From NCBI GenBank assembly GCA_045159875.1, contig CP067995.1:582970-622969 (forward strand): a stretch of 40,000 nt of DNA, given 5' to 3'. The stretch's first letter is position 1. Each line of letters begins with the position of its first letter. The DNA is from a cyanobacterium endosymbiont of Rhopalodia gibba (GTDB taxonomy: Bacteria; Cyanobacteriota; Cyanobacteriia; Cyanobacteriales; Microcystaceae). Below, piece after piece: positions 3,730-27,416 of this stretch. The notes under the pieces were generated by a model that worked only from the letters and a program-made list of their open reading frames with translations, was not told the DNA's origin and ran no database searches. A program made the translations under genes and the position numbers.

Positions 3730-4218
3730 TTAATCGTCGTCTTTGTCAGGGGATTTTGTTAAAACTTCAAATACCGTTGTAGCACAAGATTCTCGATTTT
3801 TATCAATTTCTTTCACCCTTTTAGTTATCAGTTTAGCTTCTTCGAGTTGCCCAAGTTTAGCCAAAATAAACCCTTGCGCTGCGTAGGCATTCATATACAG
3901 TCGGATAGATGAATCAAACTGACGATTGACTAATATGGGCTTTAGTTGCTCCCATTGTAGCGGAAGATTTTCTCTCTCTTGGATAATTCTTAAGATTTTT
4001 TTTGCAATCTCGAGAGCAATTTCGGGTTTTTTTTTATAAAAGAAAAAACGATAAGCTCCTATTAAAACATCAAGGTTATTTTCGGACTTGTTTAGGGCTT
4101 CACGTATATATTGTTCTGCTAATATTGTATTTTCCCAATTGTTAGAAGCTACAATTAATAAAGTTTTTACATCTTCCGATACGTCGTACCAGGACAGTTG
4201 ATCTTCACTTACTACCAT
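3730..4218 (-). CDS. Hypothetical protein, helical/TPR-like
   Basis: 162-aa ORF with helical-repeat-like composition (AYRFFFYKKKPEIALEIAKK, NAYAAQGFILAKLGQLEEAK). It lies 47 nt upstream of the 3431-3682 gene on the same strand. Confidence 0.5.
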   Translation of the reverse strand: MVVSEDQLSWYDVSEDVKTLLIVASNNWENTILAEQYIREALNKSENNLDVLIGAYRFFFYKKKPEIALEIAKKILRIIQERENLPLQWEQLKPILVNRQFDSSIRLYMNAYAAQGFILAKLGQLEEAKLITKRVKEIDKNRESCATTVFEVLTKSPDKDDD

Positions 4219-6266
4219 AATGCATCCTAAAATTCTATTATTAGAATAGCATTTCTACACAAAATAAGTATCAAAATCTCTACTTTAGAGACCGTTCATA
4301 ACGTATACATTGAAAATATTGTAGGGTGTATTATCTTATTTTGATACAAAAAAGATTGTTAACAAAAAAAATTTAGGAATTCTATTGATACAAAAAATAG
4401 AAATCTTAGTTTTCTATTTTAGATAAAGAAACAAGACTAATTTAAAATTAATTAAGCACAAATACTTATGGTTAAAATAGATAAAATACAGAAAATGGAT
4501 TTAAATTATCCTCTTTTTAGGTTTAAAAAATGTTTAATCTCTAAAAATATAAAATTCTCTCAAAGAGTTTTACTATTAACATCTTGCCGTCAAAGTTAAT
4601 TTTATTAATTTTTATTTAATTAAATAATTTACTAGATAAAAGGAAATAATTAGATGTTGTCTATATAATACGAGATATGATAATGGCTGTAATTTGTTTT
4701 TAACAAGTATTAAAATTTAATAATAAAGAGATAAATACAAGCTAATATTTTTAGGTTTTTAGAATTTTTAAAAATTTTCTACTTGTAACAAGTATATACA
4801 AATCTTGTCTCAATTTATTTAGATATAAACAAGGTTTTTAAAATTTAAAAATTCTTAATAATATTTAAAATAGATTAAATTTTCAATTTTTATAAAAAAG
4901 TTTTATCAATTAAGATAACAATATTTTATTGCCATTTTAGTCGAATGATTACATTAATAATTTAATTTTTTTTATCAAAATCATAAATTTAAATTTAACT
5001 GCGAAATCAGATTAAAAGACTGAGTAAACCTGTAAAAAGTTATCTATAAAAATATGGTTTTTCATTAATCTATTCTCAGTTATAAAATACCTAAAGACAA
5101 ATCAATATCTTATATATGCAAACAGATACAAGATGCGTTATTAAAATATGATTTACTTTTTGTAAAAAAAATTAGTATGCAGTAAAAAATTTTAATAAAG
5201 CTAAAAAATAATGGTTTATCAGAATATTTTTGTTACTAACAATAAATGAAATAAAAAAAATAGAAAAAACAATAATCAGTTTTAGACTAAAAAAAGTATT
5301 AAATAAAGATAATAACATTCTTAAAAATCAAGAATCTAATTTAGAAAATAGTGTTAGAAATACACAACAGCATTTATCAAAAAGACTACTCGCTTTAATC
5401 TGGTTCATTTTTATCTTGTATTACGTCTTTTTATTAGTAAATAAGCTAGATTAAAAAGTCTGAATAAAATTAGAGAAAAGAAACCCTTTTATAAGATAAA
5501 AAAATAAAGCTTCAGTTAAATATGAATAGTTTAAAGATTAGTCATGATTATCTATATATCTAATACTAGAAAGTGAGCAAAATAAATTAACTAATTAATA
5601 ATTTTCAAAATCCCTAGTTTATACAAAAAAATGATTAGCTATGTTTTTTATATAAAAATTTATATAATAAAAATATATTTTAAAAAAAATATTTTTTTTA
5701 AAGTTACTTCTCTGGTTTAATAAAAGAATTGAGTTCTTTTATTCTTCACAATAAGAATGACTAAGTTAAATTCTTATAAAATCTAATTAGAAAAATAATT
5801 TCTAGATAAATGAGTTAAGAAATATAAGTATTATAGTCTTTTTCAAAAAGTGTAAGTATAGATAGAATAAAAAGAACTTAGTCTATGCAAGTAATTTTTA
5901 CTAGATAAGTAAAATAAATAACAAAAAAATTATATAAATATTGATCTTTCCGACTTAAATTACTATTTAATGAACCAGGTCATCATTTTTTCTCATTATC
6001 TATCAATTTGCACCACAACTCTTAAATTAGGAACTTAATTTTTCAGTATCTTGGTTTCGTTCTACTTTAGTGGGAGAATTTCTTAATTAAATGAACGATT
6101 TTAAATATTCTTTGATTTTCTTAAATAAGGAATTTGTAGAGCTTTCTATTGACAAAATGAACCAATTTCAAAAAATTGAAGAGCGAATTACCCAATCCAT
6201 TGAGTAATTACGTCCTAAATGTTTTGAATTTAGATCATCTGATCGAAACTGAGACACTGACAATCT

Positions 6267-6314
6267 CAGCTTTTTGTTAGGGTTGCGCCTAAAGCGCAAC
6301 CCAACAAAAAGCTG
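6267..6314 (-). terminator. Strong stem-loop ending the fdxH-feo-mod-fdxB transcription unit
   Basis: cagctttttgttagggttgcgc / ctaaa / gcgcaacccaacaaaaagctg is a stem of about 21 bp with one bulge, and it includes a GC-rich core. It starts 3 nt after the fdxB stop (6317). A/T runs inside both arms mean it could act bidirectionally. Confidence 0.7.
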
Positions 6315-6316
6315 TG

Positions 6317-8893: not shown

Positions 8894-10360
8894 TTAGAAC
8901 GTGACCTCCAGAATGGATAAGAGTTGATTGAGCAAATACCCCATTAAAAAGGCAAGTACAATAACAAAACTTGTCATGGCTAGAGTAATTTTAAGTCCGT
9001 GTTGTTTTAAAATTAATTGGAATTGAGTCAGACAGGGAATAAATAGAGTTAAGGTAACTGCCGCTACGATCAATTGACGACCCATCAAAACACCTGAGCG
9101 ATGAAGGTCAAACATAGCTGCAGCCCCATAGTCTCGGCGAAAAAATCCGTAAAGAAAAATGGAGGAAGTTGCGGGAGGAAGTCCTAACCAAATCATGATT
9201 GGCTCTAACTCTTTGAGCAATATTTCAAAGAGTCCAGACAGTTTTCCTAGCCAAATTAATACTGATACTAAAATGGATATGTGAATAATTTCCTTTAAAT
9301 ACCATAGAGTTCTTCCATAAGTTTTGCTCAAAATAGACTGAACTCTAGGTATCCTTAATGGGGGAATTTCTAGATAAAAACAGGCACTATCACCAGGTAG
9401 TATCTTGGCGGTTAATAACCCTACGATAACAAAGATAAAACTAATTGTTCCCACCCAAACAATTAGAGCAGTAGGACTTTGAGACAGTAACCCCAAAATA
9501 ACTCCTAATTGAGGCGAACAGGGGACAACTAAGGCTAATAATAGGGTAGCAATCACTCTTTCCCGTTTACTTTCTAAAGTGCGAGTAACAAGAGTAGCCA
9601 TCGTTCCACATCCTAATCCTAAAACTAGGGGAGTAATAGAACGTCCTGATAAACCTAAAGCTTTCAATAAGCGATCAGCCAATAGAGAAAGTCGAGGTAA
9701 GTAGCCACTATCTTCCAATAGAGAAAACATCAAAAAGAAAGTAGTTACAATAGGAAAAATAATAGCGATAACATATCTTAATCCTAAGGTAATAATGCCA
9801 TGCTCATTAGCAATTAAATTTTGCAAAATTGTCCAGGGCAAGAGAGCCGCAGTTATCTGATTAATCAGAGGGTTAATAGTTTTAGTGAAAAAACCTTCGA
9901 GATTACTGACTAATACTCCTACGCCAAAGCTACCAATAAATTGATAGATTCCAAAATAAAAAATAATTATTGCTAGGGGAAAGCCCGTAATGGGATTCAC
10001 AGTCAACTGATGGAAAAATTCCTCACTTTCCTGGGATTTTTTCTTTATATTAACCACCGATGATTCTGCTATTTTCCTAGATAATTGATGACGACTTTTT
10101 GCAACTACTAACACCAGAGGATCACTAAACTGAGACCTAACATAATCAATAACAGTTTGAATTTCTGGAAAATGGGGCTCTAGTTTTTTGGCTTTTTCCC
10201 AAAAAATGGGATCTCCTTGAATAAGTAATAGGGCCAAACTACGCTTCGCAATCGGATATTTACACGAACTAGAAGACCCTTGATGATCTTGTATCAGCAG
10301 GGACTCAATTCTTGTCAGCCCTTCTTCAATAGCTGTAGGATAGCGCAGGAGTGGTGACAT
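8894..10360 (-). CDS. feoB: FeoB membrane (permease) portion, a separate ORF from the G domain
   Basis: 488 aa and polytopic, with typical FeoB gate/core segments. Its ATG lies inside the last 35 nt of the G-domain ORF in another frame. Confidence 0.75.
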   Translation of the reverse strand: MSPLLRYPTAIEEGLTRIESLLIQDHQGSSSSCKYPIAKRSLALLLIQGDPIFWEKAKKLEPHFPEIQTVIDYVRSQFSDPLVLVVAKSRHQLSRKIAESSVVNIKKKSQESEEFFHQLTVNPITGFPLAIIIFYFGIYQFIGSFGVGVLVSNLEGFFTKTINPLINQITAALLPWTILQNLIANEHGIITLGLRYVIAIIFPIVTTFFLMFSLLEDSGYLPRLSLLADRLLKALGLSGRSITPLVLGLGCGTMATLVTRTLESKRERVIATLLLALVVPCSPQLGVILGLLSQSPTALIVWVGTISFIFVIVGLLTAKILPGDSACFYLEIPPLRIPRVQSILSKTYGRTLWYLKEIIHISILVSVLIWLGKLSGLFEILLKELEPIMIWLGLPPATSSIFLYGFFRRDYGAAAMFDLHRSGVLMGRQLIVAAVTLTLFIPCLTQFQLILKQHGLKITLAMTSFVIVLAFLMGYLLNQLLSILEVTF

Positions 10361-10958
10361 AATTACCGATCTTGGCTTTTAACGTTTGAATGCCTCTTTT
10401 TTGGTAGGCTGATAGGGTGATAACAGGAATACCGAGAGAGGCTTCTAATTGTTTTTCATTGACCCAAATTCCCAATTTTTCAGCTTCATCAAGCATATTG
10501 ACTGCCAATAAAACCGGAAGTTGAATTTCCATGAGTTGAAATGTCAAAGCTAACATTCGACTGAGATGTTTAGCATCAATAACATGAATAACTAAATCAA
10601 TCGATTCTGTTAATAAAAAATCCCGAGAACACTGTTCTTCTTCTGTCATGGGAATCAAAGAATACATCCCTGGAGTATCAATAATAGATACTGTTTGTCC
10701 AGAAATAATTGCCTGACCTTTGGAAATGTCAACAGTTGTCCCAGGATAATTAGAAACAGTTGTGTAACTACCTGTCAACAGGTTAAATAGAAGACTCTTT
10801 CCCACATTAGGAGAACCGACTAAAGCAATAGTAGCTCGAGTAGGAATTAAAGGGTTAGAGGATTTTTTGAACTGATTTCTTGTCCAAAAACGATCCCAGA
10901 TAGCTCTCAATTTACCCGGGGATGTTTGGGAAAAATCCCGACAGTGATTGCACGTCAT
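10326..10958 (-). CDS. feoB: FeoB N-terminal GTPase domain, a separate ORF
   Basis: 210 aa with G1 GSPNVGKS, G2 PGTT, G3 DTPG and G4 NMLD. It ends in a short out-of-frame-looking tail, TTPALSYSY. Confidence 0.75.
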   Translation of the reverse strand: MTCNHCRDFSQTSPGKLRAIWDRFWTRNQFKKSSNPLIPTRATIALVGSPNVGKSLLFNLLTGSYTTVSNYPGTTVDISKGQAIISGQTVSIIDTPGMYSLIPMTEEEQCSRDFLLTESIDLVIHVIDAKHLSRMLALTFQLMEIQLPVLLAVNMLDEAEKLGIWVNEKQLEASLGIPVITLSAYQKRGIQTLKAKIGNYVTTPALSYSY

Positions 10959-12765: not shown

Positions 12766-13125
12766 TTAGCTACAAGAGGTGGCTTTACTACCACAATCTC
12801 TTGATGAGAAAGACTTGCCACACCCACAGGTATCTCCAGCATTAGGATTAGTAAAGATAAATCCGCTTTGGGTTAAACTGTCCACAAAATCAATTACCAC
12901 CCCCTTGAGAAGAGGGAAACTTTGGGAATTAACATAAATAGGAACATTTTCTTGCTCAAAAAAGATATCCTGAGCGTCTGGCTGTTTGACTAGATTGAGG
13001 GTGTATTCATGGCCACCACAGCCTCCATCTTTTATCCCAACACGAATCCCGGTTACTTTAGCTCCTTTCTCTTCTAAGAAGGTACGAAGTCTAAAAGCCG
13101 CTTTTTCAGTTAAACTAACTGTCAT
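12766..13125 (-). CDS. hesB: HesB/IscA-family Fe-S cluster carrier
   Basis: 119 aa with the A-type carrier pattern GGCGG...NPNAGDTCGCGKSF. Confidence 0.85.
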   Translation of the reverse strand: MTVSLTEKAAFRLRTFLEEKGAKVTGIRVGIKDGGCGGHEYTLNLVKQPDAQDIFFEQENVPIYVNSQSFPLLKGVVIDFVDSLTQSGFIFTNPNAGDTCGCGKSFSSRDCGSKATSCS

Positions 13126-22421: not shown

Positions 22422-23330
<909 letters not shown>

Positions 23331-23621
23331 CTAGGGAAGTTTTAACCGTTTCTGACGTAAGAACGGCTCGCCAACTGAGCGTTAGCAGTGGGATGTCCCA
23401 TCGAACCTTCAATCTCTACGTCAGGTCTGGGATTTCTTCCACATAGAAGCTAACTCTTGGTTAAGAAAAGCTTCCCCCGAGAAGAGCAAAAGCTATAAAA
23501 CTTCACTCACGAGGTGGCGTTTTAGAGAGTTAAACCAAACCTAGTCATGGTTGTGTCATGAGCAAGTAGATAAACTATACTCGTTAACATCCTTGATAGT
23601 GGGCTATCTCTAAACGTCCGG

Positions 23622-23664
23622 CGAGAAGCGATGCCTATGGTGGAGATCGCTCTCGACCTTTTTT
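23622..23664 (+). terminator. Terminator-like hairpin plus T6 on the plus strand, inside the nifU-nifH spacer (equally, a stem-loop in the nifH leader RNA on the minus strand)
   Basis: cgagaagcgat / gcctatggtggag / atcgctctcg, followed by acctttttt. The stem is about 10 bp with one bulge. Confidence 0.35.
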
Positions 23665-23739
23665 AATTAATAACATGGGCTTTGGGTATTTGATACTAAA
23701 TAAGTGAATAATTGACAGTTTGTTCTATTTACCAAGTTG

Positions 23740-24087
23740 TTATACAAAAACGACGATTAATTCTGGAGAAATACGATCACGCAATCTGGACTCGATTACA
23801 TTTTTTATGGTGGCCGCACTGCTCATAAAAGAACTGCAGGCTCCTTTGAGGGTGACTTTATTAAATAAGTCTACATCTCCTCCATCTTGTGCTGGGGCTG
23901 GCTTAACTTCTTCTTTAAGAATCTTTTGAATAAAGGTAATTTTTTGCAGATTTATTAAAAATGTGGTAGCGGCAACTTTGGACTTGGATCTGGCAACGCC
24001 TGTTGCTGTTTCTACTGCTATGGTTTCTTCTTGCACAATTTCAGTTAGAATGCTATCTATATAGTCCCACATTGTCTTTTCCTGCAT
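23740..24087 (-). pseudogene. nifU: nifU remnant: the N-terminal MWDY tag is fused to a degenerate C-terminal Nfu domain, and the IscU-like and central [2Fe-2S] domains are missing
   Basis: 115 aa versus the roughly 290-300 aa I recall for cyanobacterial NifU. It keeps MWDYIDSIL and QKITFIQKILKEEVKP..DGGDVDLF..KVTLKGAC..IESRLRDRISPELIV. The GACGSC motif reads GACSSF here, so the second Cys is lost. Confidence 0.7.
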
Positions 24088-24146
24088 GAATCGTTGATAT
24101 TTGTTGCTACTAATGATGAGTTAATAGCCATTTTTCTAAATATTCA

Positions 24147-25349
24147 CTATTTAACCAAGGCTGTCTGTTTTCGTTCGATGAGCCAACCGACATCATCGTT
24201 AGTGGGCGCAGACAAGGCACGGAGGCGATCAATAATTCCCGGCAGTACTTCAAGCACCTTCTGGACTTGATCATGAGTGGTAAAACGAGACAAACTAAAG
24301 CGAATGGAGCCGTGAAGCAACGCATAGGGAAGTCCCATTGCTCGCAATACATGAGACGGTTCTAAAGATCCGGAGGTGCAAGCAGAACCAGAGGATGCAT
24401 AAATCCCATGTTGATTTAGGGATAAGAGAATAGCTTCTCCTTCGACGAATTTAAAGCCAATATTTGAGGTATTGGGAAGCCTTTGCACGGCATGACCATT
24501 AAGTACGGTATCAGAAATAGTTGTTAGTATAGTTTGTTCTAAATAATCTCGTAATCCCTTTTCCCTGGTTTCCATAATCAGATAAGACTCAGCTAACTCA
24601 GCTGCTTTTCCTAGGGCGACAATACCAGGGACGTTTTCAGTTCCTCCACGACGACCTCTTTCCTGGTGTCCACCAATCAGTAAAGGGCTAAATCTTGTAC
24701 CACGACGCACGTATAGAGCACCAATTCCTTTGGGAGCATGAATTTTATGACCAGAAAGGGTCAACATATCAATGGTGCTTTCCTTCATGTTGAGAGGTAT
24801 TTTTCCTACTGCCTGCACCGCATCAACGTGAAACATTGCTCCGTATTTTTTAGCCAGTTGCCCAACTTGTTCTATGGGAAAAATAACGCCGGTTTCATTG
24901 TTAGCATACATTAGAGTAACTAACGCTGTATTCTGGGTTAAAGATGCCTCAAACTCTGAAATATCTAACTGCCCTTGATCATTAACAGATAGGTAAGTGA
25001 CAGTATAGTTTTTACCTTCTAAATTCTTGCAGAGGTTAAGAACTGCAGGATGTTCGACTTTACTGGTGATGATATGACGTTTGTTGGGTTGAGCGAAAAG
25101 AGCAGCATGAATGGCGGTATTATCTCCTTCAGTTCCACAACTAGTAAAAACAATCTCAGAAGGTTCCGCACCTAACAAGGAAGCAACTTGTTCTCTACTA
25201 GTTTTAACCGCAAGCCCTACCTGCCCACCAAAGGTGTGCATACTAGAGGGGTTACCGTAATAGAGGGTTAGATAGGGCAGCATAGCTGCAAGAACTTCTT
25301 CGTGAACTTGTGTAGTAGCGTTATTGTCGAGATATACACAGTCTTTCAT
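24147..25349 (-). CDS. nifS: Cysteine desulfurase NifS
   Basis: 400 aa with the PLP lysine context LSGHKIHAPKG and the active-site loop SSGSACTSGS. Confidence 0.9.
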   Translation of the reverse strand: MKDCVYLDNNATTQVHEEVLAAMLPYLTLYYGNPSSMHTFGGQVGLAVKTSREQVASLLGAEPSEIVFTSCGTEGDNTAIHAALFAQPNKRHIITSKVEHPAVLNLCKNLEGKNYTVTYLSVNDQGQLDISEFEASLTQNTALVTLMYANNETGVIFPIEQVGQLAKKYGAMFHVDAVQAVGKIPLNMKESTIDMLTLSGHKIHAPKGIGALYVRRGTRFSPLLIGGHQERGRRGGTENVPGIVALGKAAELAESYLIMETREKGLRDYLEQTILTTISDTVLNGHAVQRLPNTSNIGFKFVEGEAILLSLNQHGIYASSGSACTSGSLEPSHVLRAMGLPYALLHGSIRFSLSRFTTHDQVQKVLEVLPGIIDRLRALSAPTNDDVGWLIERKQTALVK

Positions 25350-25614
25350 CGCAGGGTACCCATAAATAAATTCCGTGATAGAGCAACTAACAGTTAAGTC
25401 AAAGGCAGGAGACAGACGTTAAAATCTCAATCAAATCCTGATCGCGCTTTGGAATAAGAAGAAAGCTAATTTTTGTGAATAGACGTTTAACCAGTGTTTC
25501 CAATAGGGCTGACCTTGGTTTGGTTTTGAGGCATCTTAATGAAGTTTGGTAACGACTGAACTAGTTCTCCTAATAATCAGCCGATGGCTGGACCGAAGCT
25601 AAAGGAGAGCAATG

Positions 25615-25642
25615 GTTACAAGTGGTAGGTTACAAGTGGTAG
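25615..25642. repeat. Perfect tandem duplication of a 14-nt unit (gttacaagtggtag x2)
   Basis: Read directly. It lies at the 3-prime end of the fdxN-like fragment 25616-25744, and 14 nt is not a multiple of three. Confidence 0.85.
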
Positions 25643-25744
25643 CGTCAATGAGCAAGACATCTTTATTATAGCATTAGTGGGACATCTAACACTACAGCGA
25701 TGATAGACAATACATTCAGATGTTGATGTTATGGCGTAACTCAT
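25616..25744 (-). pseudogene. fdxN-like fragment (N-terminal cluster motif, one Cys substituted, truncated)
   Basis: Hand translation gives MSYAITSTSECIVYHRCSVRCPTNAIIKMSCSLTLPLVTYHL*. It resembles the FdxN N-terminus as I recall it (MAYTITSQCISCKLCSSVCPTGAIK), but CxxCxxCxxxCP reads CxxYxxCxxxCP and the ORF stops after 42 codons. Confidence 0.45.
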
Positions 25745-25769
25745 GACACTACCCTTGTTCAATTCAGGT

Positions 25770-25961
25770 TTACTGGCTGCTGCCTAAATTGGGTAAACAG
25801 CTATAATCTTGGGAAAATCCCGCACAGGGGGGAATACTGTGGTCATCGACGCAACTATAACAGGTATTTTGAGCGTCATTGTCGGGCTGATGACCTATAG
25901 AAATAGAAGTTGCTGGGAAAACGGTAGAAGCTTTCACAGGAGTGATAATAATAGAATTCAT
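25770..25961 (-). pseudogene. fdxN: Degenerate fdxN directly downstream of nifB
   Basis: 63 aa. VFPATSISI stands in place of VCPTGAIKI, and CYSCVDDHSIPPCAGFS in place of CTNCVDTVYTVPQCKAGCP. All four first-cluster cysteines and the terminal CP of the second motif are substituted. Confidence 0.55.
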
Positions 25962-25964
25962 TAT

Positions 25965-27416
25965 CTATGATACTCCCATTGATTTGTTAGACTTTGTAAA
26001 CTGCTCGTAGAAATCTAGGGCTACTTTGTCAATAACATCGTAAGCCTCAAAGGGTTCTAACCCAGCCTTACGCAACTCCTCTTGGGGGCAAAGACCAATT
26101 TTAGAAGCAAGCACTCCTTTGCAATCAGCAATAGCTTTGATGATATGCTCAAGAGTCGCTTTCTCGCCATACCCAGTTTGACAATAATGGTCGACTTTGC
26201 GATGAGCTACAAATTTAACATCTGCACCATCAACCTCAAATATTTGAAATTCCTTAGCGTGACCAAAGTGTTGGTTTACTAAGCGATTCCCTTTAGTTGC
26301 TACTGCTACAAGTATTTTAGGACCTTTTTTGAGTGTTTTAGCAGCTTTTGCGGCTTTCACCTCAGCGGTAAATTTTTCAATACCTTCGTGGACTTTCTGG
26401 CGGGTAGCTAAATCATATTCAGGCGTCATCTCGAGGAACTTGTCTTTGGTGAATTCCTGAGAACGGTCTTCTCCTAAGAGTCCTACTGCGTCTGCTCGAC
26501 ATTGACGACAGTGACGCATCATTTTCATGTTACCAGAACAACTGTCTTGAACTGCTTTAAGTTCTTTGGGGCTAGGACCGCGTTGTCCGGTTAATCCAAA
26601 GTGGGTTCCATGCTCAGGCGCACTGATCAAAGGCATGATGTTATGAAGAAATGCACCTTTAGCACGAATAACTTCATTAACTTCTGCCAGGTGTTGGTCG
26701 TTAACTCCAGGAATCATAACCGAGTTAACCTTGCAAAGGATGTCTGCCTCCCTAAGGGCATCTAGGGACTCCATTTGCTTCTCTAAGAGAATTCTGACGC
26801 CTTCAATTCCCTTATAACGTTTGCGATTATAACGTACCCAAGGATAGATTTTCTCCCCAATCTTAGGGTCAACCATATTAATAGTTAGGGTAACATGGTC
26901 GATTTTCAGTTCTTTGATTTTATCAATGTACTCTGTTAACATCAAGCCGTTGCTTGACAGACATAATTTAATGTCGGGAGCTTGCTCAGCTACTAATTCA
27001 AAGGTACGGAAAGTATGCTTAGGATTCGCCAAGGGATCACCGGGACCCGCAATACCCAACACGGTCATTTGAGGAATCTTTCCGGCAATAACTAGAGCCT
27101 TGTGGGCAGCCTCTTCGGGGGTTAGAACTTCACTAACTACTCCTGGACGGCTTTCGTTGGCACAATCGTACTTGCGGTTACAATAGTTACATTGAATGTT
27201 ACAAGCAGGGGCAACTGCTACGTGCAATCTAGCATAGTGATGGTGTGCGTCCTCACTATAACAAGGATGTTTAGCAATCCGTTCCTGAATATTTTCAGGA
27301 ATAACTCGAGAGGCAGAGGAATCGCAGCCACATGGTCCTGAAGCTTTTATTGTAGATGGAGTTGCTGTCTTGGCTGCTGATGAGTCAGAGTTAGTTAAAC
27401 TGGTTGATTGTAACAT
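25965..27416 (-). CDS. nifB: FeMo-cofactor biosynthesis radical SAM protein NifB with a C-terminal NifX-like domain
   Basis: 483 aa with the radical SAM motif [14 protein letters not shown], the conserved [17 protein letters not shown], and a C-terminal [13 protein letters not shown] domain. Confidence 0.95.

What the first reader, a model, noticed from the sequence alone, without database searches (positions are those of the whole stretch)
23740..24087. nifU reduced to an in-frame 115-aa remnant lacking the scaffold domains
The ORF keeps the NifU N-terminal tag (MWDYIDSIL) and the linker plus C-terminal Nfu-like domain (QKITFIQKILKEEVKP, DGGDVDLF, IESRLRDRISPELIV). About 180-190 residues carrying the IscU-like scaffold and the central [2Fe-2S] domain are absent. 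The Nfu CxxC reads GACSSF and the domain is shortened by roughly 6 residues. The reading frame survived a large internal deletion, which is notable. The remnant may matter for translational coupling or RNA processing ahead of nifH, or the deletion may simply be recent.
Basis: partly seen in the sequence, partly recalled or inferred. Interest (0 to 1): 0.65.

Follow-up and report, generated by a model that had tools for sequence, protein, structure and literature searches.

The report
Decayed nifU remnant, reading frame kept
In the nitrogen-fixing endosymbiont of the diatom Rhopalodia gibba, the nifU gene is an already published 110-codon remnant that can no longer build iron-sulfur clusters and drifts like junk DNA, yet its reading frame has stayed open more than chance predicts.

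Summary
Between nifS and nifH on the minus strand lies a 110-codon ORF (23740-24072; the 115-codon version starts at a non-conserved upstream ATG). It keeps NifU's first four residues, the linker and a damaged C-terminal Nfu domain. The IscU-like and [2Fe-2S] domains are gone, six codons are missing inside the Nfu domain, and CxxC reads CSSF.

The window matches the spheroid body (diazoplast) of R. gibba 17Bon1. This truncation was published by Kneip et al. 2008 and called 'likely inactive' in a 2026 preprint, so it is not new.

New here:
- The deletion is old. All truncated copies form one clade (R. gibba group plus E. adnata group), sister to R. gibberula's endosymbiont, which has full-length nifU.
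- The remnant's protein sequence evolves neutrally: dN/dS about 1 against about 0.1 for intact copies, and changes fall 33/34/29 across codon positions. It diverges about as fast as the fdxN pseudogene.
- The frame is still preserved. All 7 indels are multiples of three, against 4 of 24 in flanking non-coding DNA. There are no stops, and the ribosome-binding site and start are invariant.

It is a non-functional scaffold relic. Its translation, not its product, may still matter.

The parts
23740..24072 (-). nifU remnant ORF (110 codons plus TAA), read from the conserved MWDY start
   Evidence: ORF list. Alignment to full-length NifU. The identical product is found in independent DNA and RNA-seq assemblies.
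24073..24087 (-). Upstream leader: invariant Shine-Dalgarno-like AGGAAAAGACA (24073-24083) and a non-conserved in-frame ATG (24085-24087) that gives the 115-aa reading
   Evidence: In the nifS-nifU spacer alignment, AGGAAAAGACA followed by ATG is identical in all 7 endosymbiont genomes. The upstream ATG is ACG or AGG in the others.
24061..24072 (-). Retained NifU N-terminus MWDY. The deletion junction lies between 24061 and 24060.
   Evidence: Codon alignment with L091 full-length nifU and the Epithemia-type copies.
23947..24060 (-). Retained inter-domain linker (residues 5-42), homologous to NifU residues just after the last [2Fe-2S] Cys pair
   Evidence: Alignment...CLTDI|DDILAEIVQE... in full-length copies.
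23752..23931 (-). Degraded Nfu (NifU C-terminal) domain
   Evidence: PF01106 scores 47 bits here. It scores 87 bits in full-length L091 and 83 bits in the Alani8 fusion. The AlphaFold2 model has mean pLDDT 51 and shows no Nfu fold.
23827..23838 (-). Former CxxC cluster-binding motif, now C-S-S-F (TGT>TTT)
   Evidence: All four Rhopalodia-type copies read CSSF. E. adnata reads CGSR and P0007 reads SGSC.
23854..23871 (-). Site of the 18-nt in-frame deletion inside the Nfu domain (DLF-N-KV; lost DVEGDLV)
   Evidence: Codon and codon-blind nucleotide alignments.
23295..23739 (-). nifU-nifH spacer (445 nt). It is conserved and includes the hairpin GGTCGAGAGCGAT...ATCGCTTCTCGCC at 23620-23658.
   Evidence: JC 0.085 (window to L083) against 0.169 for the remnant over the same pair. 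Sequence blocks are conserved even in free-living relatives. Fold energy -23.4 kcal/mol, z-score -2.0.
24147..25349 (-). nifS, intact, immediately upstream
   Evidence: TIGR03402 scores 611 bits against a cut-off of 531. dN/dS is 0.09-0.26.
25350..25964 (-). Spacer between nifB and nifS. It holds an intact conserved small ORF (25770-25961) followed by the fdxN pseudogene, which serves as an internal control for neutral decay.
   Evidence: FdxN homology is spread over three frames, with stops. 11 of 14 indels in the spacer are not multiples of 3.

Best explanation
This is the relic of nifU left by an old in-frame internal deletion in the endosymbiont (spheroid body, or diazoplast) lineage of the Rhopalodia gibba / Epithemia adnata group.

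It no longer works as an Fe-S cluster scaffold. The IscU-like and [2Fe-2S] domains are gone. The remaining Nfu domain has lost six core residues and the second cysteine of CxxC. The amino-acid sequence has drifted neutrally since before the two sub-clades split.

It is still transcribed together with nifB, nifS, nifH and nifD, and it keeps a conserved ribosome-binding site and start codon. Its reading frame has been kept free of frameshifts and stops more than neutral decay predicts.

I infer that what is still selected is translation through this stretch of the nif mRNA, for example to protect the long transcript. I do not think the product itself is selected.

Fe-S clusters for nitrogenase must then come from NifS working with other carriers. 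These would be the SUF system, as proposed in the 2026 preprint, and the HesB A-type carrier encoded in this window.

Shown: the anatomy, the age of the deletion, neutral substitution and frame preservation. Inferred: why the frame is preserved, and what replaces NifU.
For: Anatomy:
- Only PF01106 matches, and TIGR02000 scores far below its cut-off.
- Alignments to full-length copies show the deletion. The product has a single Cys.

Age:
- Truncated copies are monophyletic with bootstrap 0.92.
- Their sister, the R. gibberula endosymbiont L091, has a full-length 299-aa nifU.

Neutral protein evolution:
- dN/dS is about 0.8-1.4 in 14 of the 15 pairs of truncated copies (0.49 for the closest pair, L084-L087). 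It is 0.08-0.19 for the same region among full-length copies.
- For nifB, nifS and nifD in the same genome pairs it is 0.00-0.26. nifH is 0.06-0.18, apart from the near-identical pair L084-L087 (1.12 on dS 0.013).
- The 96 inferred changes fall 33/34/29 on codon positions 1/2/3.
- N:S is 70:26 against a neutral expectation of about 68:28.
- Replacements are no more conservative than random ones (p=0.73).
- CxxC was broken independently three times: CSSF, CGSR and SGSC.
- The Pfam domain score has fallen from 87 bits to 33-54 bits.
- The AlphaFold2 model has pLDDT 51.

Rate:
- JC distance from the window to L083 is 0.169, against 0.203 for fdxN* and 0.085 for the nifU-nifH spacer.

Frame preservation:
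- 7 of 7 indels are multiples of 3, against 4 of 24 in the adjacent fdxN* and spacers of the same genomes (Fisher p=1.3e-4).
- The expected number of non-3n indels is 6.6, so P(0)=0.0014. Homopolymer content is similar across the regions.
- No stops occur in any of the 6 copies. Simulation gives P=0.058 for this.
- AGGAAAAGACA followed by ATG is invariant.

Transcription:
- The identical ORF sits on contigs assembled from RNA-seq runs. One of them, L090, spans the nifB 3' end to nifD.
Against: - No direct evidence of translation exists. The proteome passages of the E. adnata preprint that I read do not mention NifU, and I did not see its protein list.
- The fdxN pseudogene leaves roughly 400 nt of untranslated RNA in the same operon. 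That stretch is tolerated, which weakens a simple 'ribosomes must cover the mRNA' model.
- In Cyanothece 51142 nifHDK expression is reported to be driven by the sequence upstream of nifH (bioRxiv 10.1101/2025.01.20.633913). Read-through from nifB may therefore not be critical.
- One lineage, P0007, carries a 1-nt deletion 17 codons from the end (inferred from the protein).
- Several of the 3n indels sit in in-phase codon repeats (GATGTAGA..., TTAGCTGAA). A mutational bias therefore contributes to the count of 3n indels, though it does not explain the absence of non-3n ones.
- The truncated loci were fetched through their called ORFs, so some ascertainment bias is possible. However, every NifS lineage I could place in this clade has an open copy.
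- Only about 6 sequences and two deep branches are available.
Confidence: 0.55

Rival explanations
1. It is a plain pseudogene. The remnant has no function of any kind, and its open frame is a coincidence of short length, few independent lineages and the way copies were found.
For: - The substitution pattern is fully neutral.
- The chance that a single copy has no stop is about 0.43, and for all six it is 0.058, which is not extreme.
- Several in-frame indels lie in in-phase repeats prone to slippage.
- One copy, P0007, is frameshifted near its end.
- The 2026 preprint calls the gene 'likely inactive'.
Against: - There are no non-3n indels where about 6.6 are expected from flanking neutral DNA of the same genomes (P=0.0014).
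- The comparison of 7/7 against 4/24 gives Fisher p=1.3e-4.
- The SD and start codon are invariant although the spacer around them varies.
- The stop codon sits at the same place in all copies.
Confidence: 0.3
2. It is a still-functional minimal Nfu-type protein. It would be a stand-alone C-terminal NifU domain, like cyanobacterial NfuA, that delivers clusters or sulfur to nitrogenase.
For: - PF01106 is still above threshold, at 47 bits against 27.
- The ORF, SD and start are kept.
- Kneip et al. 2008 argued that the truncation removes only redundant parts, citing Dos Santos 2004.
- A free-living relative, Crocosphaera sp. Alani8, keeps only the Nfu domain, fused to NifS and with CxxC intact.
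- Every copy retains at least one Cys of the motif.
Against: - The CxxC motif is broken in this window (CSSF), and was broken independently in two other lineages.
- Six core residues are deleted.
- dN/dS is about 1 even on the branches leading to the copies with intact CGSC. N:S there is 22:11, summed from the per-branch counts.
- Replacements are not conservative.
- No confident fold is predicted.
Confidence: 0.07
3. The retained DNA or RNA carries a cis element for nifH expression, such as an internal promoter like the weak nifU1 promoter of Anabaena variabilis, or a processing signal. On this view the stretch was not deleted for that reason.
For: - In A. variabilis nifH has no promoter of its own. 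A weak promoter lies inside nifU1, and the nifH 5' end is a processed end with a stabilising stem-loop (PMC4284476).
- The 3' part of nifU is what survived in both sub-clades.
Against: - The remnant diverges about as fast as the fdxN pseudogene and twice as fast as the nifU-nifH spacer.
- There is no significant low-variation segment: changes per 10-codon bin are 11,3,12,12,10,4,5,13,11,12,3, and a hand chi-square on these counts gives p of about 0.1.
- No sigma-70-like site was found on the coding strand.
- A nucleotide element would not explain frame preservation.
Confidence: 0.05
4. It is an assembly or sequencing artefact that hides a full-length nifU.
For: None was found.
Against: - The identical ORF occurs in many independent assemblies of DNA and RNA reads.
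- Homologous truncations occur in at least 7 other genomes.
- No NifU_N or Fer2_BFD signal is seen in any frame of the 74-nt and 445-nt flanks.
Confidence: 0.01

Closest known systems
Published 'truncated nifU' of the Rhopalodia gibba spheroid body (Kneip et al. 2008, BMC Evol Biol 8:30, Fig. 4; protein P0001)
   Same: It is the same locus (nifS-nifU*-nifH) with the same 110-aa architecture. Identity is 92%. The fdxN pseudogene lies next to it in both.
   Different: - The strain differs: the window matches R. gibba 17Bon1.
- The paper describes an N-terminal truncation of about 170 aa with the [2Fe-2S] domain intact.
- The alignments here show an internal deletion that keeps MWDY and removes all four [2Fe-2S] cysteines. 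The Nfu motif is also broken.
Full-length three-domain NifU (TIGR02000), e.g. the R. gibberula endosymbiont L091 (299 aa) and free-living relatives L092-L095
   Same: It is orthologous, lies in the same position between nifS and nifH, and has the same start context and C-terminal end.
   Different: The full-length proteins have NifU_N (176 bits), Fer2_BFD (66 bits) and NifU (87 bits) domains, and evolve at dN/dS of about 0.1. The remnant has only a degraded NifU domain and evolves at dN/dS of about 1.
Stand-alone or fused Nfu domains: plant CnfU/NFU (PDB 2z51, 2jnv), human NFU1 C-domain (2m5o), and the NifS-Nfu fusion of Crocosphaera sp. Alani8 (L026)
   Same: They share the domain family PF01106. 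The best PDB matches are these proteins, at E 1e-4 to 3e-3. Alani8 shows that a relative also shed the two N-terminal NifU domains.
   Different: Those proteins keep CxxC and the full beta-hairpin. The window copy reads CSSF and lacks six residues exactly where the PDB alignments need a gap.
The fdxN pseudogene in the same operon
   Same: Both genes are degraded in every copy of the truncated clade. Both sit within the region covered by RNA-seq-derived contigs. Their nucleotide divergence is similar.
   Different: fdxN* is scattered over three frames with stops, and 11 of 14 indels in its spacer are non-3n. nifU* has one frame, no stops and 7 of 7 3n indels.

Membership tests
NifU proper (three-domain nitrogenase Fe-S scaffold, TIGR02000) | N-terminal IscU-like domain (PF01592) with its three cluster-ligand cysteines | tested here: not met
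   There is no PF01592 hit. Only MWDY remains.
NifU proper (three-domain nitrogenase Fe-S scaffold, TIGR02000) | Central BFD-like [2Fe-2S] domain (PF04324) with four cysteines | tested here: not met
   There is no PF04324 hit. The region is deleted. The product has a single Cys.
NifU proper (three-domain nitrogenase Fe-S scaffold, TIGR02000) | Whole-protein score above the curated equivalog cut-off | tested here: not met
   55.5 bits against a cut-off of 273.3.
NifU proper (three-domain nitrogenase Fe-S scaffold, TIGR02000) | Orthologous position between nifS and nifH | tested here: met
   Synteny with 10 related loci.
Nfu-type Fe-S carrier (PF01106 domain proteins) | Recognisable NifU C-terminal domain | tested here: inconclusive
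   PF01106 scores 47 bits (cut-off 27), against 83-87 bits for intact copies. A 6-residue internal deletion is present.
Nfu-type Fe-S carrier (PF01106 domain proteins) | CxxC cluster-ligand motif | tested here: not met
   The motif reads C-S-S-F in the window and in all Rhopalodia-type copies.
Nfu-type Fe-S carrier (PF01106 domain proteins) | Purifying selection on the domain | tested here: not met
   N:S within the domain is 43:18, which is neutral. dN/dS is about 1.
Nfu-type Fe-S carrier (PF01106 domain proteins) | Alpha/beta Nfu fold | tested here: inconclusive
   The AlphaFold2 model from an 8-sequence alignment has mean pLDDT 51 and is all-helical with low confidence. The alignment is shallow, so this is weak evidence.
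Pseudogene / gene relic | Loss of residues essential for the ancestral function | tested here: met
Pseudogene / gene relic | Neutral substitution pattern (dN/dS about 1, no codon-position bias) | tested here: met
Pseudogene / gene relic | Accumulation of frameshifts and stops at the neutral rate | tested here: not met
   There are 0 non-3n indels (6.6 expected) and 0 stops (2.8 expected).
Translated ORF selected for being translated, not for its product (leader-like or cis-acting ORF) | Conserved ribosome-binding site, start and open frame despite an unconstrained sequence | tested here: met
Translated ORF selected for being translated, not for its product (leader-like or cis-acting ORF) | Ribosome occupancy, and an effect of frame disruption on downstream nifHDK expression | not testable with these tools
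   This needs Ribo-seq or proteomics and genetics. Only transcription is supported so far.

The most novel reading that the evidence does not exclude
The nifU relic is a case of 'frame without sequence'. It is a former gene whose amino-acid sequence is entirely free to drift. Its ribosome-binding site, start codon, stop position and reading frame are nevertheless held by selection, because translating this stretch of the nif operon mRNA matters for nitrogenase expression in the endosymbiont.
Probability: 0.4. Interest if true: 0.55.

Novelty: already known. Interest (0 to 1): 0.33.

Why it matters
**The basic fact is published.** A truncated nifU in the R. gibba endosymbiont was reported in 2008 and noted again in 2026. 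The finding therefore adds no new kind of system.

**Why it still matters for engineering.** These diatom endosymbionts fix nitrogen actively without a working NifU. Yet deleting nifU from the closely related Cyanothece cluster expressed in Synechocystis cuts nitrogenase activity more than 100-fold (bioRxiv 10.1101/2025.01.20.633913). How the endosymbiont supplies clusters to NifH and NifDK bears directly on efforts to build minimal nitrogen-fixing organelles.

**What this analysis adds.**
- It corrects the published anatomy: no [2Fe-2S] domain remains.
- It dates the loss to the common ancestor of one endosymbiont clade.
- It shows the protein is not under selection.
- It raises a testable oddity: the frame is preserved although the sequence is not.

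Tried and rejected
- **Genome-collection scan with NifS.** I recovered the relevant loci through exact-protein look-ups instead.
- **Rfam scan of the whole window.** No family reached threshold.
- **Consensus fold of the nifU-nifH spacer.** The blocks are well conserved but show almost no covariation (3 of 71 pairs), so no structure can be claimed from covariation.
- **Promoter and terminator scan of 23200-24200.** Nothing was found on the coding strand.
- **Search for more NifS-Nfu fusions using the Alani8 tail.** Only one short related fragment (P0128) turned up. The other listed hits were Nfu/NifU-family proteins, mostly about 185-aa NfuA-type from other phyla.
- **Supplement of Abresch et al. 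2024, searched for nifU expression values.** Nothing was held.
- **AlphaFold2 on the remnant.** The model was low-confidence, so I did not run a fold search.
- **Single versus two independent large deletions.** The junction sequences fit either history. Monophyly and a shared derived L>F change in KITFIQ favour one ancestral deletion followed by a second 78-81-nt deletion in the Rhopalodia-type copies. This is not proven.
- **Antisense ORF 23720-23929 (+).** I considered and rejected it as the real gene. All three reverse frames carry 2-14 stops in every copy.

Full report
**What is there**

The window carries a cyanobacterial nif cluster on the minus strand:
- nifB at 25965-27416
- a degraded fdxN region
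- nifS at 24147-25349
- the ORF in question
- nifH at 22422-23294, then nifD, nifK, nifE and nifN
- further downstream nifX, nifW, hesA, hesB and fdxH

The ORF 23740-24087 translates to 115 aa. Pfam detects only the C-terminal NifU/Nfu domain (PF01106, 47 bits). It finds no NifU_N and no Fer2_BFD. The NifU-proper model TIGR02000 matches only profile positions 176-288 of 290, at 55 bits against a cut-off of 273.

**Origin, and whether it is already known**

The closest proteins are 110-aa 'NifU' proteins from the endosymbionts of three diatoms:
- Rhopalodia gibba, 92% identity
- R. yunnanensis, 88%
- R. inflata, 85%

Four further copies of 132-143 aa come from the Epithemia adnata type.

The exact 110-aa product of the window is called on contigs in 37 blocks of the public assembly index. 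Contigs read include one from SRR26035200 and two from SRR26379929 and SRR26379931. Abresch et al. 2024 (PMC11131595) list the first as genomic reads, and the latter two fall in the range they list as RNA-seq, of R. gibba 17Bon1. The window is therefore that endosymbiont's genome, and the remnant is transcribed. One RNA-derived contig, L090, runs from the nifB 3' end through fdxN*, nifS, nifU* and nifH into nifD.

The truncation itself has been published twice:
- Kneip et al. 2008 (PMC2246100) showed a 'truncated nifU' and an fdxN pseudogene in the R. gibba spheroid body.
[quoted passage not shown] It suggests that SUF compensates.

**Exact anatomy**

I aligned the remnant to full-length NifU from close relatives: the R. 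gibberula endosymbiont L091 (299 aa) and L092-L095 (292-294 aa).

Epithemia-type copies:
- They keep residues 1-31 and resume at ...DDILAEIVQE, just after the last Cys pair of the [2Fe-2S] domain.

Rhopalodia-type copies, including the window:
- They keep only MWDY and resume one residue earlier, at IDSIL.

Both types have lost every ligand cysteine of the IscU-like and [2Fe-2S] domains. This contradicts the 2008 statement that the [2Fe-2S] domain is intact. Pfam also finds no Fer2_BFD domain in that paper's own protein, P0001.

Damage inside the Nfu domain:
- Rhopalodia-type copies lack six codons (DVEGDLV>N) and read C-S-S-F instead of CxxC.
- Epithemia-type copies lack two codons at each of two places.
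- E. adnata reads CGSR, and P0007 reads SGSC.

The Nfu-domain Pfam score is 87 bits in an intact copy and 33-54 bits in the remnants. An AlphaFold2 model of the window protein is of low confidence, with mean pLDDT 51.

The conserved start is the MWDY ATG at 24072. The upstream ATG that gives 115 aa is not conserved.

**Age of the deletion**

A nifS+nifH tree places all truncated copies in one clade (bootstrap 0.92). Its sister is the R. gibberula endosymbiont (bootstrap 1.0 for the wider group), which has full-length nifU.

Between the two truncated sub-clades, flanking genes differ at dS 0.15-0.44. The deletion is therefore old, not recent.

The junction sequences cannot tell one ancestral deletion plus a second 78-81-nt deletion apart from two independent deletions. 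Monophyly and a shared derived L>F change at an otherwise invariant site favour the first history.

**Is the protein under selection? No.**

- dN/dS (Nei-Gojobori) is about 0.8-1.4 in 14 of the 15 pairs of truncated copies. It is 0.49 for the closest pair, L084-L087, which differ at only 8 sites.
- It is 0.08-0.19 for the same codons among full-length copies.
- In the same genome pairs it is 0.00-0.26 for nifB, nifS and nifD. nifH is 0.06-0.18, except for the near-identical pair L084-L087 (1.12 on dS 0.013).
- Parsimony places 96 changes within the truncated clade. They fall 33/34/29 on codon positions 1/2/3.
- Of these, 70 are nonsynonymous and 26 synonymous. The neutral expectation is about 68:28. 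The ratio looks neutral on every branch, including those leading to the copies that still have CGSC.
- Replacements are no more conservative than random ones: mean BLOSUM62 is -0.37 against -0.26 expected (p=0.73).
- Overall divergence from the window to E. adnata (JC 0.169) is close to that of the fdxN pseudogene (0.203). It is twice that of the nifU-nifH spacer (0.085).

The remnant is therefore not a conserved protein, and it is not a conserved nucleotide element. The conserved cis information lies in the spacer. Blocks there, including a hairpin at 23620-23658, are conserved even in free-living relatives.

**The oddity: the frame is preserved**

- All seven indels inferred within the truncated clade are multiples of three: 78/81, 18, 3, 6, 6, +6 and +12 nt. 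A codon-blind nucleotide alignment gives the same result.
- In the adjacent fdxN* region and the two spacers of the same genomes, only 4 of 24 indels are multiples of three. Fisher's test gives p=1.3e-4.
- From those controls, about 6.6 non-3n indels are expected in the remnant and none is seen (P=0.0014). GC and homopolymer content are comparable across the regions.
- No copy has an in-frame stop. Simulation along the tree with the observed mutation spectrum gives P=0.058 for all six copies and about 0.43 for one copy.
- The motif AGGAAAAGACA followed by ATG upstream is invariant in all seven endosymbiont genomes, although the rest of that spacer varies.
- In contrast, fdxN* is spread over three frames with stops.

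Caveats:
- The deep branches are few.
- Several of the 3n indels sit in in-phase codon repeats.
- The loci were fetched through called ORFs.
- One lineage, P0007, has a 1-nt deletion 17 codons before the end.

**Interpretation**

I am confident that this is a relic of nifU that no longer functions as an Fe-S scaffold or carrier.

The best reading of the frame signal is that translation through the stretch is still selected, and the product is not. This is an inference. The 445-nt gap to nifH rules out direct translational coupling.

A plausible mechanism is protection of the long nif transcript. In Anabaena variabilis, nifHDK mRNA derives from read-through from the nifB promoter, followed by processing at a stem-loop (PMC4284476). 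I recall that cyanobacteria lack Rho, but I did not test this here.

Two points count against that mechanism:
- The untranslated fdxN* stretch is tolerated in the same operon.
- The sequence upstream of nifH is reported to drive nifHDK in Cyanothece 51142.

The plain-pseudogene reading remains a serious rival.

What replaces NifU is not shown here. NifS is intact and under selection. A HesB A-type carrier is encoded at 12766-13125. The preprint proposes SUF.

The question has some weight. Deleting nifU from the Cyanothece cluster expressed in Synechocystis lowers nitrogenase activity more than 100-fold.

**Verdict**

The feature is already known. It is of modest interest, with one new and testable twist.

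Noticed in passing
L026:4001-5410 (Crocosphaera sp. Alani8, NZ_JARVCN010000055.1): In this free-living relative, NifS is fused in frame to a C-terminal Nfu domain (469 aa; PF00266 plus PF01106 at 83 bits; CDAC motif intact). No separate nifU lies before nifH. This is an independent loss of the IscU-like and [2Fe-2S] domains of NifU. A protein search with the tail found only one short related fragment (P0128).
   Followed up: partly
window 25350-25964 (-): fdxN is a frameshifted pseudogene. Homology to FdxN is spread over three frames and interrupted by stops, as Kneip et al. 2008 reported. The 135-aa 'fdxN' of the R. gibberula endosymbiont (L091:4044-4451) also looks degenerate and has no Pfam hit on record.
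   Followed up: partly
window 25770-25961 (-): A small Cys-containing ORF (63 aa...CYSCVDDHSIPPCAGFSQDYSCLPNLG...) lies directly after nifB. Gene calls show an ORF of similar size (57-65 aa; 32 aa in L084-L086; none called in L087) at this position in the other loci, including free-living Aphanothece sacrum. Only the L091 copy was compared by sequence (62% identity). It has no Pfam family and its function is unknown.
   Followed up: no
window 23295-23739 (-), hairpin at 23620-23658: The nifU-nifH spacer keeps its length (444-452 nt) among the endosymbiont genomes compared. It contains blocks conserved even in free-living relatives, including the hairpin GGTCGAGAGCGAT...ATCGCTTCTCGCC. The loop carries a 5-nt deletion in L084 and L087 while the stems are unchanged. 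It may correspond to the nifH leader or processing stem-loop described in Anabaena.
   Followed up: partly
window 8894-10958 (-): feoB is split into two overlapping ORFs: 10326-10958 (FeoB_N GTPase, 210 aa) and 8894-10360 (Gate/FeoB_C, 488 aa). This suggests a frameshift in this chromosomal feoB copy. The literature notes a second feoAB on the endosymbiont plasmid.
   Followed up: no
L081 and L082 (R. yunnanensis and R. inflata endosymbiont assemblies CP191493 and CP191494): nifH (L081 only), nifD and nifK, plus nifS and nifB in L082, are called as several fragments in these two genomes, while the nifU remnant is intact. These are either assembly frameshift errors or real decay of nitrogenase genes. 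It is worth checking before these assemblies are used for evolutionary inference.
   Followed up: no
window 4219-6316: This is an ORF-poor stretch with very low GC (0.205 for 4001-6000, against about 0.40 in the nif genes). It is probably heavily degraded former coding sequence.
   Followed up: no
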